DNA of 64,000 nucleotides, from IMG/VR virus record IMGVR_UViG_3300029288_000001, positions 32,001 to 96,000 of that record; one strand, 5' to 3'. The stretch is from a virus (taxonomy: Duplodnaviria > Caudoviricetes). Below the pieces are notes generated by a model. That model was given only the letters and a program-made list of their open reading frames with translations. It did not search any database and was not told the DNA's origin. This document shows, one piece after another, positions 3,550 to 51,655 of the stretch (its first letter is position 1; each line of letters starts with the position of its first letter). Position numbers and translations under genes: made by a program.

Positions 3550-4617
3550 TCATAGCTCTTGTTCCTCTCTCTTTTCCATTTTGGGTAAGTTCTCCTTTAC
3601 TCGTTTCGTGATGTAGTTGTCTAATCTATCCCATCTTTTGTCTATCGTGAGGAAAACACCGCTCTTGTGCGTTAAGTCCGTGCGTGCGGCGATCTCTTTT
3701 CTTGGAACACCTTGCACCTTCTTACATTCCTCTAAAACAGCCGTGCGAGTGTCGAAATATGCTTTCTCTAAATATGCTACCATTTCTCTAAGCTCGGTGC
3801 AGAACTCCTCGGGAATCGTGAGTATTAGTTCTTCGTCCACTTTCCCATCTTTCATACTTCCACATAAATTCTTGTAGGTAAGGTTCGCTAATAACTTCGC
3901 CACTTCGAAATATCTCTTTGATTTAAACTTTACTCGTTCTCCTCCCTTATAGAGCGCTACGAACCCTTCTTGGTCGAGCTCGCGGTGCGTTTCTTGCCAT
4001 TCGAACATCTGCTCGGGCGTAATAGTAAATTCCTTGACTAGCTCCATTTTAAGGTCCTGGTTAATTTTCTCTACTAACTTACGCGGGAGCTCTCCTACGG
4101 ACTTATCGAAGATCGCGAGTAGGACGAACTTCTCTTCCTTACCGTAATCGATCACGATTCTATTCTCGGGATATATGATCTCGGCTAAGATCGTGTAGTC
4201 GTGTGGAACCATCGAAAGATCGTGCTTCTTTAACATCTCCGTCGCTTTAATAGACTGCTCAGACGCGAACGACCCGCGCGTGTTAACTCTCCACTTCCCG
4301 TCGTACCAATAGATTATTCCTAGAGAGCCATCGACCTTCTCGGTAATCGATACTGGCTTCGCGGCAAGAAACCTCTTCTGTTCCTCGGGAGAGAACTCGC
4401 TTAGATTGAAGAATTTCGAGAACGGTCTCGCGACGAGATCGCCAGTATGCGCGTCGTATATGTGCCCTCTCGAATTGATCGTGATGTCGTTCCATATTTT
4501 ATCGAACTGGCACTTGTCTGAGTAGTTAAAGAGCACCAGCTTGCCGTCGTCGGAAAATTTCCGCATGAGGTAGCCTTGGTCGATCAACTCGTCTATGCGT
4601 TTATCCTTTATGTCCAT
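3550..4617 (-). CDS. T4 Rnl1-like RNA ligase
   Basis: SRG...ARPFSKFFN, EKVDGSL, TRGSF, AEIIYPENRIV, EGFV, VKFK motifs. Confidence 0.88.
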   Translation of the reverse strand: MDIKDKRIDELIDQGYLMRKFSDDGKLVLFNYSDKCQFDKIWNDITINSRGHIYDAHTGDLVARPFSKFFNLSEFSPEEQKRFLAAKPVSITEKVDGSLGIIYWYDGKWRVNTRGSFASEQSIKATEMLKKHDLSMVPHDYTILAEIIYPENRIVIDYGKEEKFVLLAIFDKSVGELPRKLVEKINQDLKMELVKEFTITPEQMFEWQETHRELDQEGFVALYKGGERVKFKSKRYFEVAKLLANLTYKNLCGSMKDGKVDEELILTIPEEFCTELREMVAYLEKAYFDTRTAVLEECKKVQGVPRKEIAARTDLTHKSGVFLTIDKRWDRLDNYITKRVKENLPKMEKREEQEL

Positions 4618-22083: not shown

Positions 22084-23646
22084 TCATTTCTGTTCGCCCC
22101 CGAGCTTCTCTTTTAGTTTCTCGTAGAACTCGTTATAATCGTCGGAACGCGCAAGAACGAGCGAATCTAAGCGTTCGATGTCCTTAGCGACCTCCGCCTT
22201 CATTATGAAGTACTCGCAAGGTTCGCATAATTTACACGGAATATGATTACGATCTGCATTTCTAGGACATTTAGCGATCTTTTCTTCGAGAGAGGGTTCC
22301 GCAACGAAACACGAACATTTATTGTCGTTAACTGGCTTACAACCTTCGAACCGTTTCTTACATCCATTACAAATTTCGTGAGAGGGTTCCGCCGCCGCGC
22401 CCTTCTCTGCTTTCACTTTCTTACACGACTCACAATTACATAAGAGTCCGTGTGCCATGTAAGTCGCAACATCGTCAGAAGAGGGTTCCTTCGGTTTCGA
22501 GTCGGTCTCTTTCTCGTATTCACCACAATTCTTAGAATTAATTGTACTCCACGCGCTCCATGTGTAGGAACATCCGTTCCTTCTTCGACAAGTCAAGCAA
22601 GAGGTCTCGCTCGTGGGTTCCTTCGGTTTCGAGTCGTGTTTGCAACTATCTAAATTATAACACCATTCATCGTTCTCGATGTAAGCTTTATGGCACTCTT
22701 CACAAACCGATTTCTCGCCCGAAGTCTTTAAAAACGATCTAACCTCAAACGGCAATTTAACGCCCGCTTCTGCGCTTCGATCTACTAAACAGATCACGAA
22801 TTTCGGTTGTTTTCCTACTCGTTTGATACAGTCCTCTACGCTCTTTCCCGTAGTGATCACATCGTCGTAGATTATATAATCGCATCCTCTTAGATCAAAG
22901 TTCCAAGTGTCATCTTTAGGAGAATAATACCCATCAATACAGTCAGTTAAGGTGATTGGATGAATCGATTGGATTGCGAATAGTTTTAAACCGTTCCGTA
23001 ATTCTAATATTTTATTCGTTATAATACGAGCGTCCTTGTTTTCTGGCTTGTCTAATAGATCGAACTCGTATTTTCCGTTCAATTTAACTCCGTGCGTGGA
23101 TGTAAACTCTCCTGCTACGAAGTATTTTGAAAAATCAATTAGAGACGAAATTGGAATTGGCGGTTCCATATTCCACTCCGCGAGTCGTTCTACCGATTTC
23201 TCGCGCGAAGGCTCCTTCCCTTCGCAATGCTCTTTGTAATATTTAATAAAGTCTTGATTAACGGATTCGTGTTTATCTACGGTATCTCTGATGATAGAGA
23301 GCGCCCCGCGTAGAACCTTTATTTCTTTATCTTGTTTGTTAAGACGGTTAAATATGTTATCGTAATCTGCCTTAAAGATTAAGACTAAACGATTGTTCGA
23401 AGCACCAACGGGACAAAACCTTTTATTGGCAAGCTCGTCGGGAAGAGATTTAAGCTGGGCTTCCAGCTTCTCAATTGATTGAAACGCTTTTCCAAACGAA
23501 TCTATATAATTTTGCTCGATGGCTCGGATGTCTTTATTCTCTAATTCAGAGACCTTTTCCTCCAGCGCCTTGATACCTAATTGATCTCGGAACAATTCCG
23601 CGCTTTCCTTTTCGATGTAAAATGTGGTCTTCTTAGAATCATTCAT
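22084..23646 (-). CDS. Mosaic protein A: coiled coil, orotate-PRTase-like domain and Cys-rich cassettes
   Basis: GEFTSTHG and the PRPP motif IYDDVITTGKSV; linker motifs shared with 42425..43735 and 48532..49857. Confidence 0.75.
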   Translation of the reverse strand: MNDSKKTTFYIEKESAELFRDQLGIKALEEKVSELENKDIRAIEQNYIDSFGKAFQSIEKLEAQLKSLPDELANKRFCPVGASNNRLVLIFKADYDNIFNRLNKQDKEIKVLRGALSIIRDTVDKHESVNQDFIKYYKEHCEGKEPSREKSVERLAEWNMEPPIPISSLIDFSKYFVAGEFTSTHGVKLNGKYEFDLLDKPENKDARIITNKILELRNGLKLFAIQSIHPITLTDCIDGYYSPKDDTWNFDLRGCDYIIYDDVITTGKSVEDCIKRVGKQPKFVICLVDRSAEAGVKLPFEVRSFLKTSGEKSVCEECHKAYIENDEWCYNLDSCKHDSKPKEPTSETSCLTCRRRNGCSYTWSAWSTINSKNCGEYEKETDSKPKEPSSDDVATYMAHGLLCNCESCKKVKAEKGAAAEPSHEICNGCKKRFEGCKPVNDNKCSCFVAEPSLEEKIAKCPRNADRNHIPCKLCEPCEYFIMKAEVAKDIERLDSLVLARSDDYNEFYEKLKEKLGGEQK

Positions 23647-33984: not shown

Positions 33985-36442
33985 TTATTCTTCTTTTAAA
34001 TATTTTGGTGTCTTATACTCCGCGTATTTATCTAACCCTTTCTTGGGTATGAATTTATCTACGATCGGATAATGCTTGTGCTCTAAGATGTCTTTTACAT
34101 CGAAGTAATGAATAGTAATCTCGTTCTCGCGTTTTAACCGCGCTACCTCCGCTCTAAAATCCGCCGAGAATTCCGTCGCGATGAAGATCCCTTCCGTCTG
34201 CTTCTCTCTTAATAGAGTCCCGCTAAACGCGTCTAGATGAGCGCGCCCCGCCTTGAATTTCTTTACTTGGATAAGGCACTCCCCCAGATTGCCGTCTATG
34301 CCGCCGTCGGCGCCTCTATTGCCCGAGAAGCCTCCAAACTCGCGTATGACGAAGTTCTGGAACTCGTAGCCGTCAAGCTGGGCGATCTCCTCGGGGGTGA
34401 TGGGTAGTCCTTCTATGATATCGAACCTTACTTTAAGGCGCTTGGCGATCAACCTACACGCAGTAGGAGATACATCTATTCCGATCCATTGCCTGTTGAG
34501 TTTCTTCGCTACGGCGATCGTTGTGCCACAGTTCCCATTCAATATTACTTTTCCTTCTCTTCTTATAATGATTATATGGGAAGGAACTGTTACACAATAT
34601 ACATAGTCGTTCCAATCAATAATTTCTGCGTGTTTTAATGTAGACTCGGTTCGTTTAATCGTTCCGCTGATGCAATAACATATACTCTTCGACCAGAATA
34701 ATCGACCATCCTTTGACATTTTTTTCTCCGTTCGTGGTAGTCGTTTTGAAATCGTAACACATATACCAAGCTTAACCATTATTTCTGCTATGTTATCAAT
34801 TAATTGTTTTGAAATGCTATAGATCCGTATTCCATCTTCCCTTGTCATTCCATCTGATAAGATTAAGCCTTCTAATACATCTTGTAAGTATGGTTTATCG
34901 TAGTTTAGAACTTCTCTTGGTATCGTGCGTGTTGGTTGTTTGTGGCATTGTTTAAGATAAGTAAAGATCTCTTCGTTGTTAAAGGTATATCGTCCTTCAG
35001 TTTTCTTCCAAACTATGTTCATTTTGTTTAAGAAGTTTTTAATGTAACTATCGTTGTCTTTTATTTGGCGTATTCCTACACGATACCCCGTTGATGTTTT
35101 TCCTTCGTCAATATATCCATCACCTAGCCAGAATCCAAGGAACTTACACCATGCGTGTGGGTCTATGTTATTTGGTGGTTTCGGTATATTTCCAGAGCTA
35201 ATTCCATTGCAGTTTCTTTTAATTTTCGCTAGCCATTTTATGTCCTTAGCTTTGATAAAATCATAATCTGTATAATGAAATGTTGGGGCGGTCTTTCTCT
35301 CAGCCGCATACATGTTATGATCGGGCGTGACTAAAATGTCATACATTGTGGATTTCCAGTGATACATCTTTCCATTATGGATATATTTCTGTTTCGTTAT
35401 AGCATCTACATATTCAATGGTATTACCTTCTACTTGGGCGATCCTTTCGTTTTCTAGGTTCTTAAATTTTACCCATCCGTTCTCTGTTAATAACTCCGTT
35501 TCTCCATCGTAACATCCACAAAACGCGTCAAGGACGACATCGTTCTCGTTGGAACTGGTTTTGATTATACGTTCTAAGAGCGCTTCTGGCTTCTGTGTTG
35601 GATAACCAAGTCGTTCTTTTGATGACGGATGTAAATACATTCCATCCCATACATCTGAGCATGGTATATTAGCATCGAGATATTTTTTATAATTAGGTAA
35701 TCCTCCACTCGACCATTCGAACTCTCCACCATTCCTTACGAATTCGTCTATCTTATTTTGAGTCCATACCCAACCGTGTTTATTATCTAATTGAACTGTT
35801 TTGTCTTCCGTTGGGAAGTATCTACTTTGACCTTTTGAGACATCTACATAACTATTAGCTTTTATGATAGTTATACTTCTATAATATCCTTTGTTATCTT
35901 TTTTCTTGTATTGACCAGATAGATCTTTGGACTTTTCTTTTTGAATGTTAAATATATAATCGTCTGATTTGGTATAAATCAATATTACATCGTGGATTAC
36001 TCCAAATTTATTAGTGCCAGTTCCTTTAGCGTTCGTTCTCAACCAGCATATACGATTTAAAGGATCTCTATCGAATATTTGATCGCATAGAACTCTTAAA
36101 TACGCGTCCGCGTGCCAGTCGCAATGGAGATAGAAGCTTCCCGTTTTTTTAAGAACCCGATATATTTCCTTAATTCTCGGTTCCATCCACTCCAGATACA
36201 CGTTGATATCCTTCTTCGCCCGTCCGCTCCCGTTCTTGTTCTCGGTAATCCAACGGTCTCCAAACTGCCGTATTTCCGCGCCGTCGCCCCAAATGACCTC
36301 GTAGTTCTTGATCGCGAAGGATTAGTAAAATCTAATCGGTTTTCGTGAAGAACGGAGGGTCTATGTAGACGAGATCGACGGACTCGGATTCCAAGGTCTT
36401 GAGGACTTCTAAATTATCTCCACATATTATTCTTTCTATCAT
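33985..36442 (-). CDS. N6/N4 DNA methyltransferase (beta class) fused to an Mrr-like nuclease domain; contains an intein and a predicted 31-nt intron
   Basis: Exon 1 (36442-36342) reads MIERIICGDNLEVL...DLVYIDPPFFT. Exon 2 has YLHCD, YPTQKPEALLERII, DAFCG/CGTT, and a C-terminal GYEFQ...DGGIDG...IQVK. Confidence 0.88.
34531..35514 (-). mobile_element. Intein (328 aa) with LAGLIDADG homing endonuclease
   Basis: Splits the SAM motif DAFCG|CGT. Starts CYDGETELLTENGW and ends VYCVTVP...GN|C; contains FLGFWLGDG and LEGLILSDG. Confidence 0.93.
36311..36341 (-). other. Predicted BHB-type mRNA intron, 31 nt
   Basis: GUUCUU CACG AA^A...GAUUAG-loop-CUAAUC...CGCG AU^C AAGAAC. Removal deletes an in-frame TAG and fixes the frame, giving DPPFFTNKNYEVIWGD. 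Confidence 0.75.
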
Positions 36443-42424: not shown

Positions 42425-43735
42425 TTATGTACCGCCCCCGAGCTTCTCTTGTAAGTTCCTCAAATGCGTGATGATTCCCGCGTATAACTGAATACCGTTG
42501 ATTCCCATGTCGTCTCCTAATCCTTGTTTTGTTTGATCAATCCACGCGAAGATTGCGTTAATGTCCTTAGCGACCTCCGCCTTCTCGACCCATTTCTTTC
42601 TGCGAGAACATCTCTTTTTTCTATCCTCTGGTCTATACGAACAATAACCGTTGCAATTGAGGTCTTCGCATTCATAACATAAATCAAAAGGATGAGAGGG
42701 TTCCGCCGCCGCGCCCTTCTCTATTGGTTTAAAATAATCACATATTCCCCATGTATCTACATTCAAGCAATCCTCAGACATATATTGCGAGCAGAATTCC
42801 TTACAAGTTGGTTCGTCGTAAGGTTCGCCCTTCGGTTCAAAACTACTATATTCTTCGTCGCATTCATCGCATTCGGGAGAAGGATCTTTAAACATACATT
42901 CTTCGCATTTCTGAAACATTTTAGAGGGTTTCGATTTCGAGTCGGTCTCTTTCTCTAATTCCGTTTGTCGTAGGTTATAGCCTTGCCAGAACTCGTTTGA
43001 TTTCTCGATCTCGGTCTTGTCTTCCTTCGATTTAAAGATCGGTAATCCACACATGTTTCCGTGCGAGTCTCGAGCACAGTTAGAAGTGTCGATGGTATAA
43101 TCCTTCGGCTTCGAGTCGGTTGAGGGGACTTGAACCCCTATTCCTCCCGTAAGAGAGTCTTTCCCCAGCTCGCGAGCCTGTTCCGCTTGTCTCGGAATTA
43201 GACTGACAACCGATTTCTCGCCCGAAGGCTCCTTCTCTTTCTCTCGTTCTTTGCTACAACTACTTGCGTGATTTACGGGTAGTCCTCCACATTCGGGGCA
43301 TCTAATCGAAGACTCCTTCACTTCGTGTAATTTCTGAGAGAGTTTTCTAAATAAATCAGACGCAATAGAATCAGAAGGTATTCTGCCTTCCGTAACATCC
43401 TTTAGTATGGATTCGATAAGAAAGAGCGCCCCGCGCAGAGCTTCGTTCTCTTTTCGAATATTTACTAATGTTATATTAGTTTTCGTGATCTCTCCCATTT
43501 CAGCTCCAATTCGTTCTTTAATATGCTCTCCTAATTGGTTGAACTGGGCTTCCAGCTTCTCAATCTTAGGCTCTATGAAGTTCTCTTGTCCAATACCACC
43601 TAATATCATCGCCTTCTCGGAGATCCAAGCGTTAATTCGTTTTAGAACTTCAGAATGGTTGTTGTCGAGGCTCGCGACCTTCTCTTTTAGATCGTTAAAT
43701 TCCTTTCGTTCTATATAGTCCATTTCTTTCACCAA
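42425..43735 (-). CDS. Mosaic protein B: coiled coil and Cys-rich cassettes
   Basis: Shares IEKLEAQ, LRGAL, KEPSGEKSV, TDSKPK, GAAAEPSH, KAEVAKDI and EKLGG with mosaic protein A. Confidence 0.7.
   Translation of the reverse strand: MVKEMDYIERKEFNDLKEKVASLDNNHSEVLKRINAWISEKAMILGGIGQENFIEPKIEKLEAQFNQLGEHIKERIGAEMGEITKTNITLVNIRKENEALRGALFLIESILKDVTEGRIPSDSIASDLFRKLSQKLHEVKESSIRCPECGGLPVNHASSCSKEREKEKEPSGEKSVVSLIPRQAEQARELGKDSLTGGIGVQVPSTDSKPKDYTIDTSNCARDSHGNMCGLPIFKSKEDKTEIEKSNEFWQGYNLRQTELEKETDSKSKPSKMFQKCEECMFKDPSPECDECDEEYSSFEPKGEPYDEPTCKEFCSQYMSEDCLNVDTWGICDYFKPIEKGAAAEPSHPFDLCYECEDLNCNGYCSYRPEDRKKRCSRRKKWVEKAEVAKDINAIFAWIDQTKQGLGDDMGINGIQLYAGIITHLRNLQEKLGGGT
43116..43213 (-). ncRNA. tRNA-like element embedded in a CDS (no anticodon loop)
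   Basis: Acceptor stem TCGGTTG/CAACCGA, T-arm AGGGG-TTCAAGT-CCCCT, D-stem AGTC/GACT with an enlarged loop, and CTCT-TACG-GGAG in place of the anticodon arm. Confidence 0.7.
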
Positions 43736-48531: not shown

Positions 48532-49857
48532 TTACTTTTCTCCCCCGATCTCCTTTCTTAGTTTTTCAATATATACGGAAATTATTCCTTTTAGCGTTTT
48601 ATGATCGATACACGCGTCAACATATTTCTGTAATTGATCGGCGACTACTGCCTTTTCGATCACATCGATGTGTTCCATTACCGATTCTTCGTTGTTTTTC
48701 GTGCGATCTATAACGATTATTTTTTCAAGAGGGAGACAATTTGGATAAAACCAATTTCCTTTGAGATCCTTACATTTTAGTCCGCATTCGTCTATTCCTT
48801 CACCACCTATCGCGAAAGGACAACGATCGCATTGACCAGGGACTGGTTCCGCCGTCGCGCCTCTCATTTTATTGAACTCGTCTTGAACTTCCTTTTCCGT
48901 AATATCAGGGATCTTTAGATGAGACGCCGCCTCTTTCTCGTCTTCTTCCTTAATCCTCTTACAATAATCTATTTCCGATTCGCCGTCGATCTCAGAAACT
49001 ACGGTGTAAGGAGCGGTAGAGAGAACCGTTCCCACAGGAGGGTCCACTCTTTTATAACATTCACAATCGCATTTATTACAGTCTCTATCATAATGGTCGG
49101 CGAATGTATGTCCACACTTACAAAGGGGATGATCCTTCGCTTTCGAGTCGGTCTTTTCCTTCTCTCTTTTTTCGATTAACGCTTTTCTTTCTTGTTTATA
49201 TTTGATCTCGTCGTACACGCTACATCCTACCGTTCTATTGTTTTTTTCTTTACAATCAATAGATTTGGGACACTTCTCGCATACAATAATCGATTTCTCG
49301 CCTGGAGGATCTGTCGCTTCTTTCATTATTTTTTTTAATCTCTCTTCTTCTTTTTTAAACTCGAACGCTTCCTTTATAGAAGGATCGCCAATTCTTATAT
49401 CTCGTAGTCCTCTTGATTGGTAAGCGTCTTGGATTGAATGAGAAGGTGGTATTCCTTCCTTCTTTCCTTCGAGCGCGTCTAACCTCTTTAATACGCTCTG
49501 TTCCTCTTTCCACTCTTCTTGAGACGAGTTCACGCACGCACGCATCCAAGTTTCGAGATCGTTTAACCGCAGTAACATTTCCTCCCGTCCTTCGATCTCT
49601 TTCGTCATTACTACCATCCTCTCTTCGATCTTACATTCGAGCGTTTCTATTCTATCTCGGAAGTCTATAAGCACCTCTCCCGTCTGCGTGAGCTCTCGGT
49701 CGGCGAAGGTTGTAAGGTCTTTTACCTTGTCCTCTATTTCGTGAAACCTTTGTCGTATTCCATCTATAACGCTCAGTTGATCGTTCCTATGTCTCGCGAG
49801 GATGTCTTCGAGCTTGTCCAACCGTTCTTTTAATTGGATGCTTTCGTAGTCGGTCAT
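48532..49857 (-). CDS. Mosaic protein C: coiled coil and Cys-rich cassettes
   Basis: Diverged linkers PPGEKSI, KTDSKAKD, GATAEP, EKAVVAD and EIGGEK. Confidence 0.7.
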   Translation of the reverse strand: MTDYESIQLKERLDKLEDILARHRNDQLSVIDGIRQRFHEIEDKVKDLTTFADRELTQTGEVLIDFRDRIETLECKIEERMVVMTKEIEGREEMLLRLNDLETWMRACVNSSQEEWKEEQSVLKRLDALEGKKEGIPPSHSIQDAYQSRGLRDIRIGDPSIKEAFEFKKEEERLKKIMKEATDPPGEKSIIVCEKCPKSIDCKEKNNRTVGCSVYDEIKYKQERKALIEKREKEKTDSKAKDHPLCKCGHTFADHYDRDCNKCDCECYKRVDPPVGTVLSTAPYTVVSEIDGESEIDYCKRIKEEDEKEAASHLKIPDITEKEVQDEFNKMRGATAEPVPGQCDRCPFAIGGEGIDECGLKCKDLKGNWFYPNCLPLEKIIVIDRTKNNEESVMEHIDVIEKAVVADQLQKYVDACIDHKTLKGIISVYIEKLRKEIGGEK

Positions 49858-50779: not shown

Positions 50780-51655
50780 TTACCCCTTTATTTTATCGTT
50801 TAAATAATTGAAGAACTCTTTCCTTGCCTTCTCTCCGATCGCTTTCTTGACTGCGTCCGTGATCACGGTCTCTCCTTTCGATTCTTTTTCCACATCCGCG
50901 ATCATTGCCTTGATCACATCTCCGGTATCTTTTTTATCAGGATCCGCAGGGAGACCATATTTCGTAGGGTTACTCATTAAATGACTAAGCCGCCCAGCAG
51001 TGACCCATTCTTCCGCGATCGCTTTCGCTTCTGTTAAGACCTTCAACTTCGCGGGATCGTCTATAGCTCGGGGAGTTTTAACTTCGTCGTATTCTGGGTT
51101 TCTATATTTCGCGATCACTCTAGAACCGTTGTTGGATGTAAACTCTTCTAATGGATGGAGCACTAACCCTTCGCGTAGATGCTCACCCATCTCTTTCTTT
51201 GCGGCTATCGTAGAAGGTAATCTCGCAACTCGCATTACTTCTTCTGGCGTAGCGTCTATGATCACAGAATCTACCACTTGTAACCCTAGTTGTCCTCCCA
51301 GTGCGATCGTTTTATCGAACGAAAGCCACATATCCTCTACTCGGATGTCGAACAAGATGAAATCTGAGTTCTTTCCATACATATGGCTCATTTTATTGAT
51401 CTTTCCTCCGTAGAACTCGCCATGGAGCTTCACTTTCTTAGTTCCAAACTTTTCGCGCATAAGAGCTAATAACTTCTCGTGGTTGAATAGCGCCTTAAAT
51501 ACATCTGCGGAACCTCCTCCTGAATGATAGAAAAGATTATCGTCCTTATAGGTAATCCACGCGCTCGTGCCGTGAATCTTCTCGGTCGCCCAGATCTTCT
51601 TAAACAACAATATTTGTTGGTTTTTATACAAATTCTCGATTTCTAAATAACCCAT
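50780..51655 (-). CDS. Rnl2-like RNA ligase
   Basis: ATEKIHGT, HGEFYG, FILFDI, REGLVL, IAKYR, WVTAGRL C-domain. Confidence 0.85.
   Translation of the reverse strand: MGYLEIENLYKNQQILLFKKIWATEKIHGTSAWITYKDDNLFYHSGGGSADVFKALFNHEKLLALMREKFGTKKVKLHGEFYGGKINKMSHMYGKNSDFILFDIRVEDMWLSFDKTIALGGQLGLQVVDSVIIDATPEEVMRVARLPSTIAAKKEMGEHLREGLVLHPLEEFTSNNGSRVIAKYRNPEYDEVKTPRAIDDPAKLKVLTEAKAIAEEWVTAGRLSHLMSNPTKYGLPADPDKKDTGDVIKAMIADVEKESKGETVITDAVKKAIGEKARKEFFNYLNDKIKG

What the first reader, a model, noticed from the sequence alone, without database searches (positions are those of the whole stretch)
43110..43214. Anticodon-less tRNA mimic inside an excisable in-frame cassette
The 105-nt BHB-flanked cassette of gene B folds with a perfect 7-bp acceptor stem (which is also the BHB inner helix), a canonical T-arm, a D-stem with a roughly 40-nt loop, and a UACG-capped 4-bp stub instead of an anticodon arm, while still reading in frame. 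It could be released as a circular tRNA decoy against anticodon nucleases or tRNA sensors. Alternatively, it shows that the linkers descend from a BHB-processed tRNA gene.
Basis: partly seen in the sequence, partly recalled or inferred. Interest (0 to 1): 0.75.

Follow-up and report, generated by a model that had tools for sequence, protein, structure and literature searches.

The report
tRNA-shaped insert inside viral gene
A protein gene of a 225-kb virus that probably infects Asgard archaea contains a 105-base stretch that reads as protein but folds like a tRNA with a ruined anticodon arm and is bracketed by a motif the host's tRNA-splicing enzyme could cut; the tRNA shape is real, but whether the piece is ever cut out or does a job is untested, and a captured tRNA-like gene is the likeliest origin.

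Summary
Observation largely confirmed, on the minus strand. The cassette has a 7-bp acceptor, a consensus T-arm, a D-stem and the tRNA core nucleotides. RF00005 gives 23.9 bits (cut-off 29; genome-wide E 0.0013). None of 20,000 synonymous recodings reproduces it, and its codon usage is the worst in the gene. Corrections: five of the seven acceptor pairs come from linkers that also flank tRNA-free cassettes in two paralogues; the BHB is relaxed and its folding depends on context; the stub is not a cUNCGg loop. The virus probably infects Lokiarchaeia and carries other non-decoding tRNA-like RNAs, one with the same swollen D-arm. No homologue of the cassette was found; two related proteins lack it, so covariation is untestable. 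Best reading (0.45): a tRNA-like gene captured in frame in a mosaic gene, translated as a spacer and optionally skippable by host EndA. A released functional mimic is possible (0.25). An anticodon-nuclease decoy has support only from the circle junction, which resembles a tRNA-Ser anticodon loop. Not Y RNA, tRNA-Sec, permuted tRNA or attP. The scan has no look-alike on other DNA.

The parts
42425..43735 (-). Gene B: mosaic ORF (436 aa from TTG, 432 aa from the ATG at 43723); coiled-coil-like ends, Cys-rich modules joined by short linkers shared with paralogues A and C
   Evidence: no Pfam or PHROG family; codon usage typical of the virus outside the cassette
43214..43228 (-). Linker L1, 5' strand of the BHB: outer helix 43228-43222, unpaired G 43221, central CGAG 43220-43217, bulge AAA 43216-43214; predicted cut between 43215 and 43214
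   Evidence: the 10-nt core occurs 4 times in the genome, all in genes A, B, C
43110..43214 (-). 105-nt in-frame cassette (35 codons); predicted intron if the BHB is cut
43207..43213 (-). Acceptor stem 5' strand = BHB inner helix (first 5 nt belong to L1)
43156..43204 (-). D-arm-like domain: 4-5-bp stem, 39-nt loop with A14, A15, a G run and A21, and about 30 extra nt forming a bulged hairpin
43144..43155 (-). Short stub (4-5 bp, 4-nt loop) where the anticodon arm, or a class II variable arm, would be; 17 nt between D- and T-stem against 22-23 in a normal tRNA
43123..43139 (-). T-arm: 5 WC pairs, consensus loop with G59
43116..43122 (-). Acceptor stem 3' strand (last 5 nt belong to L2); position 73 would be C at 43115; no encoded CCA
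43102..43115 (-). Linker L2, 3' strand of the BHB: central CUCG 43115-43112, bulge AAG 43111-43109 (cut between 43110 and 43109), outer helix 43108-43102
42936..42946 (-). Second L2 copy in gene B; would give a 279-nt alternative cassette (pairing probability 0.04)
49142..49294 (-). Paralogue A: L1-L2 cassette of 153 nt, Cys-rich, no tRNA fold, BHB decayed (probability 0)
22496..22711 (-). Paralogue C: L1-L2 cassettes of 84 nt (22628-22711) and 216 nt, Cys-rich, no tRNA fold, BHB probability about 0.95 (mutually exclusive)

Best explanation
The cassette is a tRNA-derived, non-decoding RNA gene, of the sort this virus keeps elsewhere as free-standing elements, that became lodged in frame between the short repeated linkers of a hypervariable mosaic gene. 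These genes collect unrelated modules between the same linkers. In the unspliced mRNA it is translated as a 35-residue spacer. Because L1 and L2 pair as a relaxed BHB, host EndA can probably skip it in some transcripts, giving a shorter in-frame protein and a 105-nt by-product; the tRNA shape is inherited and has no demonstrated job of its own. Shown: the fold, its non-chance nature, the frame, the shared linkers, the absence from two homologues. Inferred: capture, direction of events, EndA cutting, lack of a separate function.
For: Lowest codon adaptation of 404 windows in gene B and of 155 windows in 11 viral genes; 55% GC against 43%: RNA-derived, not protein-shaped. The same linkers bracket tRNA-free Cys modules in A and C, and a PRTase-like domain lies between two L1 copies in C (weak). 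Homologue P0002 keeps the module that follows the cassette but has neither cassette nor linkers; P0005 likewise lacks the linkers. A free-standing viral element (G000 145741-145844) has the same plan: 7-bp acceptor, UC link, GUYU/AGAC D-stem, 36-nt D-loop, abnormal anticodon arm. G59 is shared with 4 of 4 viral minihelices, against 0 of 8 true viral tRNAs and 8 of 62 host tRNAs. The lower half cannot be assigned to one isotype: Sec-, Val- and Leu-like readings all fit in part. The D-loop surplus equals a host-type intron in size and place. No TATA-like box in the 590 nt upstream.
Against: Decay looks non-random: all 16-17 core pairs and the tertiary-contact bases (U8, A14, A21, A15:U48, G18/G19, U54:A58, U55, C56) are intact while only the anticodon arm is lost, which suggests selection on shape. 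The two inner acceptor pairs extend the linker helix in exact tRNA register, which plain insertion would rarely give. Helix extensions beyond the shared linker are also complementary in C. Local sequence similarity to the free-standing mimic is not significant (p 0.54).
Confidence: 0.45

Rival explanations
1. Intron-hosted tRNA mimic: EndA excises the cassette, RtcB or a viral ligase joins the exons and circularises the intron, and the released RNA works as a tRNA-shaped decoy or ligand for proteins that read the elbow and acceptor. The circle junction would add a Ser(CGA)-type anticodon stem-loop.
For: Intact top half and core; BHB + cloverleaf at 0.9-1.0 probability in local windows; in-frame exon join; host EndA in 5 of 5 genomes; two viral RNA ligases; a frame-breaking insert in the methylase gene of this window suggests mRNA splicing occurs in this virus; other tRNA mimics in the genome; junction 12/17 identical to the viral tRNA-Ser anticodon arm.
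Against: No conserved copy found in IMG/VR, JGI metagenomes, phages or 100-200 Asgard genomes; two homologues lack it. BHB-like pairings are common by chance, and the motif loses to other folds in long contexts. The virus makes its other mimics from intergenic genes, a simpler route. The junction loop is partly a by-product of BHB geometry and would form in tRNA-free cassettes too. No CCA; no Ro60.
Confidence: 0.25
2. Cis-acting processing signal: the tRNA-like fold is a t-element moved inside the ORF. It stabilises the BHB or draws RNase P and RNase Z, and so sets isoform ratio or mRNA turnover of gene B; the released RNA is waste.
For: T-loop G59 shared with the intergenic minihelices that precede genes; acceptor + T-arm are what RNase P and Z read (PMC1920247, PMC3978253); the fold closes the BHB at short range.
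Against: Cassettes in C reach the same BHB probability with no tRNA fold. Leader and trailer are paired in the BHB, which should hinder P and Z until EndA has cut (inference). A minihelix would suffice; D-arm and stub would be superfluous.
Confidence: 0.15
3. attP-like tRNA fragment inside a viral ORF, as in SSV-type integrases.
For: Precedent for translated tRNA 3' ends in archaeal virus genes (PMC3293823); the 3' part is 31/38 identical to Lokiarchaeia tRNA-Sec (p about 0.02 after allowing for all tRNAs).
Against: No tyrosine integrase in the complete genome; gene B is not an integrase; no tRNA with this T-arm and acceptor 3' strand in 201 Asgard genomes searched; both ends of the tRNA are present, not only the 3' end.
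Confidence: 0.05
4. Chance fold in ordinary coding sequence.
For: Below the Rfam cut-off; weak folding z-score; most of the acceptor is explained by the linkers.
Against: 0 of 20,000 synonymous recodings; genome-wide E 0.0013; every other hit of the same scan is a tRNA or minihelix; outlying codon usage.
Confidence: 0.05

Closest known systems
BHB introns in archaeal mRNA: cbf5 of Desulfurococcales/Sulfolobales (PMC2738675) and the 5' UTR intron of Haloferax HVO_1309 (PMC7714728)
   Same: BHB-like motif in a protein-coding transcript; some cbf5 introns (33, 36, 39 nt) keep the frame; excised introns circularise.
   Different: Those are 16-47 nt, unstructured as tRNA, chromosomal and shown to be spliced. 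This is 105 nt, viral, tRNA-shaped, probably translated when retained, and splicing is not shown.
Functional RNA hosted in a BHB intron: C/D box RNA in the euryarchaeal tRNA-Trp intron (PMC12558985)
   Same: A structured RNA released as a circle by EndA and ligase.
   Different: There the host is a tRNA and the cargo a guide RNA; here the host is an mRNA and the cargo tRNA-like. Function and release are unproven here.
t-elements (plant mitochondria, PMC1920247) and this virus's own intergenic minihelices
   Same: Acceptor + T-arm kept, no anticodon; G59 shared with the viral minihelices.
   Different: Lies inside a reading frame, has a D-arm and stub, and its ends are clamped by a BHB.
Circularly permuted tRNA genes with a 37/38 junction (PMC3978253)
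   Same: The terminal BHB has exactly that geometry; ligation yields a C32-U33-CGA-A37-A38 loop.
   Different: The interior runs D, stub, T, not variable, T, acceptor, D; no acceptor forms inside, so no tRNA can mature from it.
tRNA fragment (attP) within SSV-type integrase genes (PMC3293823)
   Same: tRNA-derived sequence translated in frame in an archaeal virus gene.
   Different: No integrase, no matching host tRNA, whole cloverleaf outline rather than a 3' fragment.
YrlA-type Y RNA (RF02553)
   Same: tRNA mimic without an anticodon.
   Different: YrlA is permuted and bound by Ro60 (own knowledge); here the topology is unpermuted, there is no RF02553 match and no TROVE gene.

Membership tests
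Functional tRNA (RF00005) | Score above the gathering cut-off | tested here: not met
   23.9 bits against 29; ARAGORN none
Functional tRNA (RF00005) | 7-bp acceptor, 5-bp T-stem with consensus loop, D-stem, core tertiary bases | tested here: met
Functional tRNA (RF00005) | 5-bp anticodon stem with 7-nt loop | tested here: not met
   17 nt between D- and T-stem; 4-nt loop
Archaeal BHB intron | 4-bp central helix with two 3-nt bulges and flanking helices | tested here: met
   Relaxed form: inner 7 bp, outer 2 bp strict or 1x3 loop + 7 bp
Archaeal BHB intron | Motif folds in the mRNA context | tested here: inconclusive
   0.79-0.95 in most short windows, 0.0-0.17 in long ones
Archaeal BHB intron | EndA in the host lineage | tested here: met
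   two or more PF01974 genes in 5 of 5 Lokiarchaeia genomes; host assigned by RadA only
Archaeal BHB intron | Spliced or circular product observed | not testable with these tools
   No RNA run available; only the source DNA run
tRNA-Sec (archaeal 9/4) | 9-bp acceptor, 7-bp D-stem, UCA anticodon, long paired variable arm, G73 | tested here: not met
   Asgard Sec model 12.4 bits, below a background hit of 18; no RF01852 hit; only the 3' sequence resembles it
Circularly permuted tRNA | BHB at the termini giving an anticodon loop | tested here: met
   junction 12/17 identical to the viral tRNA-Ser arm
Circularly permuted tRNA | 3' half precedes 5' half with an internal acceptor | tested here: not met
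   arm order D, stub, T; T-arm lies 2 nt before the would-be position 27
YrlA / Y RNA | RF02553 match and a Ro60/TROVE partner | tested here: not met
attP in an integrase gene | Integrase gene and near-identity to a host tRNA end | tested here: not met
t-element | Cleavage by RNase P or RNase Z | not testable with these tools
   needs in vitro assay
Conserved structured RNA | Covariation among homologues | tested here: inconclusive
   no homologous cassette found; two protein homologues lack it

The most novel reading that the evidence does not exclude
A viral mRNA hosts, as an optional in-frame BHB intron, a tRNA mimic that host EndA releases as a circle with a tRNA elbow at one end and a Ser(CGA)-type anticodon loop at the ligation junction: alternative splicing and ncRNA production from one archaeal-virus exon.
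Probability: 0.2. Interest if true: 0.85.

Novelty: new variant of a known kind. Interest (0 to 1): 0.52.

Why it matters
Protein-spliced mRNA introns are known from very few archaeal genes (PMC2738675, PMC7714728), and my paper searches found none that hosts a tRNA-like RNA or lies in an Asgard virus. If cut, this would be optional exon skipping plus an intron-hosted ncRNA in the lineage closest to eukaryotes, testable in vitro with Lokiarchaeia EndA. If not cut, it still shows a tRNA-like gene turned into protein sequence, and it points to a tRNA splice site as the origin of the linkers of a module-collecting gene family.

Tried and rejected
No RNA holder listed in SRA; the single holder is a DNA run that may be the source. 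The four 'joints' come from the same contig's paralogue C sharing linkers, not from deletions. Homologue searches: protein, DNA patterns in IMG/VR, metagenome pattern (20 hits, none tRNA-like or gene-B-like), phages (T-arm matches to tRNAs only), Asgard genomes: no cassette homologue. Plus-strand fold is not tRNA-like. tRNA-Sec origin: 3' similarity only, model test failed. tRNA-Val(UAC) origin (UAC in the stub; T-arm 17/18 like host Val): the remembered Val(UAC) form was not found in 51 Asgard genomes, left open. Host tRNA-Ser(CGA) as linker source: its stem differs and the motif is at control level. Similarity to G000 120,250: chance (p 0.06). Similarity to host tRNA-His (5-bp helix, 12-nt intron end): post hoc, not counted. 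A clean BHB intron inside the D-loop: no register gives a normal D-loop. ARAGORN deletion and permutation scan gave no usable scores. ESM Atlas: no hit above 0.8. One folding script timed out. No structure or complex prediction was run, as neither bears on the RNA question.

Full report
Setting. The window is 32,001-96,000 of a complete 224,826-bp virus record with terminal repeats. It encodes MCM, RadA and two RNA ligases. RadA is 73-77% identical to Promethearchaeota (Lokiarchaeia) proteins, so the host is probably a Loki-type Asgard archaeon; this rests on one gene. tRNA genes of that lineage carry roughly 30-nt introns at many non-canonical places, including the D-arm (compare PMC11291895), and all five genomes tested have at least two EndA genes. 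The virus has no EndA, integrase or Ro60.

The observation. The cassette lies on the minus strand inside gene B and is in frame. The predicted fold is as described: 7-bp acceptor, 4-5-bp D-stem around 39 nt, a short stub, a perfect T-arm. Rfam scores it as tRNA at 23.9 bits, under the cut-off of 29, with E 0.0013 for the genome. A T-arm + acceptor scan finds eight places in the genome, and the other seven are tRNA genes or a minihelix; 20 simulated genomes gave one hit. Holding the protein fixed, none of 20,000 recodings has the motif, and the real sequence folds about 18 kcal/mol better than their mean. Its codon adaptation is the lowest of 404 windows in gene B and of 155 windows in eleven viral genes. 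Reading the Rfam alignment, U8, A14, A21, the A15:U48 pair, a G run for G18/G19, U54:A58, U55 and C56 are in place. The tRNA ancestry is therefore solid.

Corrections. The stub closes with U-G and has other registers, so it is not a UNCG-type cap. Five of the seven acceptor pairs belong to linkers L1 and L2, which recur in paralogues A and C around Cys-rich cassettes with no tRNA fold. The BHB is relaxed on its outer side. It forms with probability 0.79-0.95 in most windows of 160-500 nt but 0.0-0.17 in three longer ones. Pairings of this size are not enriched genome-wide (16 against 10-13), so the case for the BHB rests on the repeated linkers being complementary, and on helix extensions beyond them in B and C; in A it has decayed.

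Where it came from. No single isotype fits. The 3' 38 nt match Lokiarchaeia tRNA-Sec at 31 positions, the best of more than 65 host tRNA genes (p about 0.002 against Sec alone, 0.02 against all), which would make the stub a variable arm, but an Asgard Sec model scores it only 12.4 bits. A Val reading (UAC in the stub, T-arm like host Val) could not be confirmed. The closest in plan is the virus's own free-standing element at G000 145741-145844: same link, D-stem, swollen D-loop (36 against 39 nt) and abnormal anticodon arm, with encoded CCA, though without significant sequence similarity. The T-loop has G59 like all four intergenic minihelices, unlike eight true viral tRNAs and most host tRNAs (8 of 62). 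So the cassette looks like one more of this virus's non-decoding tRNA-like RNAs.

The linkers. Cutting the BHB and closing the intron joins L2 to L1 into a stem with a 7-nt loop reading C-U-C-G-A-A-A, a canonical anticodon loop for Ser(CGA). Twelve of its central 13 nt equal the spliced anticodon arm of the virus's own tRNA-Ser(GGA); the one difference is the wobble base. This is the geometry of a permuted tRNA gene with a 37/38 junction (PMC3978253), but the interior arms run in normal order, so it is not one. I infer that the linkers descend from a tRNA-Ser splice site. Part of the match is forced by BHB geometry, and the comparison was made after the fact.

Homologues. Among 1.84 and 5.8 billion proteins only two relatives appear, both from one other sample. 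P0002 shares the module right after the cassette and a later one, but has no cassette or linkers, and reads like a cassette-free allele; P0005 resembles the start of gene A and lacks linkers. DNA searches found nothing. Covariation cannot be tested.

How it most likely works. Shown: fold, frame, linkers, absence in relatives. Inferred: a tRNA-like gene was captured between linkers of a gene family that collects modules (Cys clusters, a weak PRTase-like domain in C). It is translated as a 35-residue spacer and can probably be skipped by host EndA in some transcripts (0.45). The intact top half, the exact register of the acceptor and a frame-breaking insert in the nearby methylase gene keep open a released functional mimic (0.25) or a cis processing signal (0.15). 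attP and chance are unlikely (0.05 each). As a decoy for anticodon nucleases only the circle junction could serve, and tRNA-free cassettes would supply it as well.

Comparison and verdict. It works, if at all, like a BHB mRNA intron (cbf5, HVO_1309) carrying a t-element-like cargo, by analogy with the C/D RNA in the tRNA-Trp intron. It fails membership as tRNA, tRNA-Sec, permuted tRNA, Y RNA and attP; membership as an intron is untested. I found no published case of this combination in nine searches of the paper library, which is incomplete. New variant of a known kind; real and odd, but one genome and no RNA data. Interest 0.52.

Noticed in passing
G000:C1:145741-145844 (minus; L184): Free-standing tRNA-like element with 36-nt D-loop, 10-nt loop on the anticodon stem, T-loop lacking the consensus and encoded CCA; RF00005 24.5 bits.
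   Followed up: partly
G000:C1:131010, 125750, 121492, 119004, 111034 (minus): Intergenic acceptor + T-arm minihelices upstream of genes; four share G59.
   Followed up: partly
G000:C1:144918-145502 (minus): tRNA-Leu(UAA) with a roughly 500-nt intron holding an endonuclease-like ORF.
   Followed up: no
G000:C1:144680-144820 (minus): tRNA-Ser(GGA) with a 55-nt intron at 37/38; imperfect BHB.
   Followed up: partly
G000:C1:145890-146075 (minus): Another tRNA-like start and acceptor end about 180 nt apart, missed by ARAGORN and Rfam; possibly a multi-intron tRNA or part of a longer RNA.
   Followed up: no
window 36300-36355 (minus): DNA methyltransferase gene broken by a stop and frameshift after the DPPF motif; removing 31 nt restores the frame. 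The gene also appears to hold an intein.
   Followed up: partly
window 22725-23200 (minus, gene C residues 150-305): Phosphoribosyltransferase-like domain between two L1 linkers; 5 of 7 weak PDB hits are PRTases (E 0.28-0.83).
   Followed up: partly
window genes B and C: At least six further 17-30-nt DNA blocks are identical between B and C in the same order, with unrelated sequence between; linkers nest as L1 L1 L2 L2 in C. A 6-nt direct repeat flanks the L1-L2 unit in B.
   Followed up: partly
L120, L125, L128: Lokiarchaeia tRNA-Sec genes with a roughly 30-nt BHB intron in the D-arm; PMC5330540 mentions only a T-arm intron for Lokiarchaeota tRNA-Sec. Other genomes (L127, L152, L154) have none.
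   Followed up: no
L200:1441-1575: Host tRNA-His(GUG) with two introns, in the variable region and the T-loop.
   Followed up: no
window 3550-4617 and 50780-51655 (minus): Two RNA ligases (Rnl1-like and Rnl2-like), consistent with tRNA repair or intron ligation.
   Followed up: no
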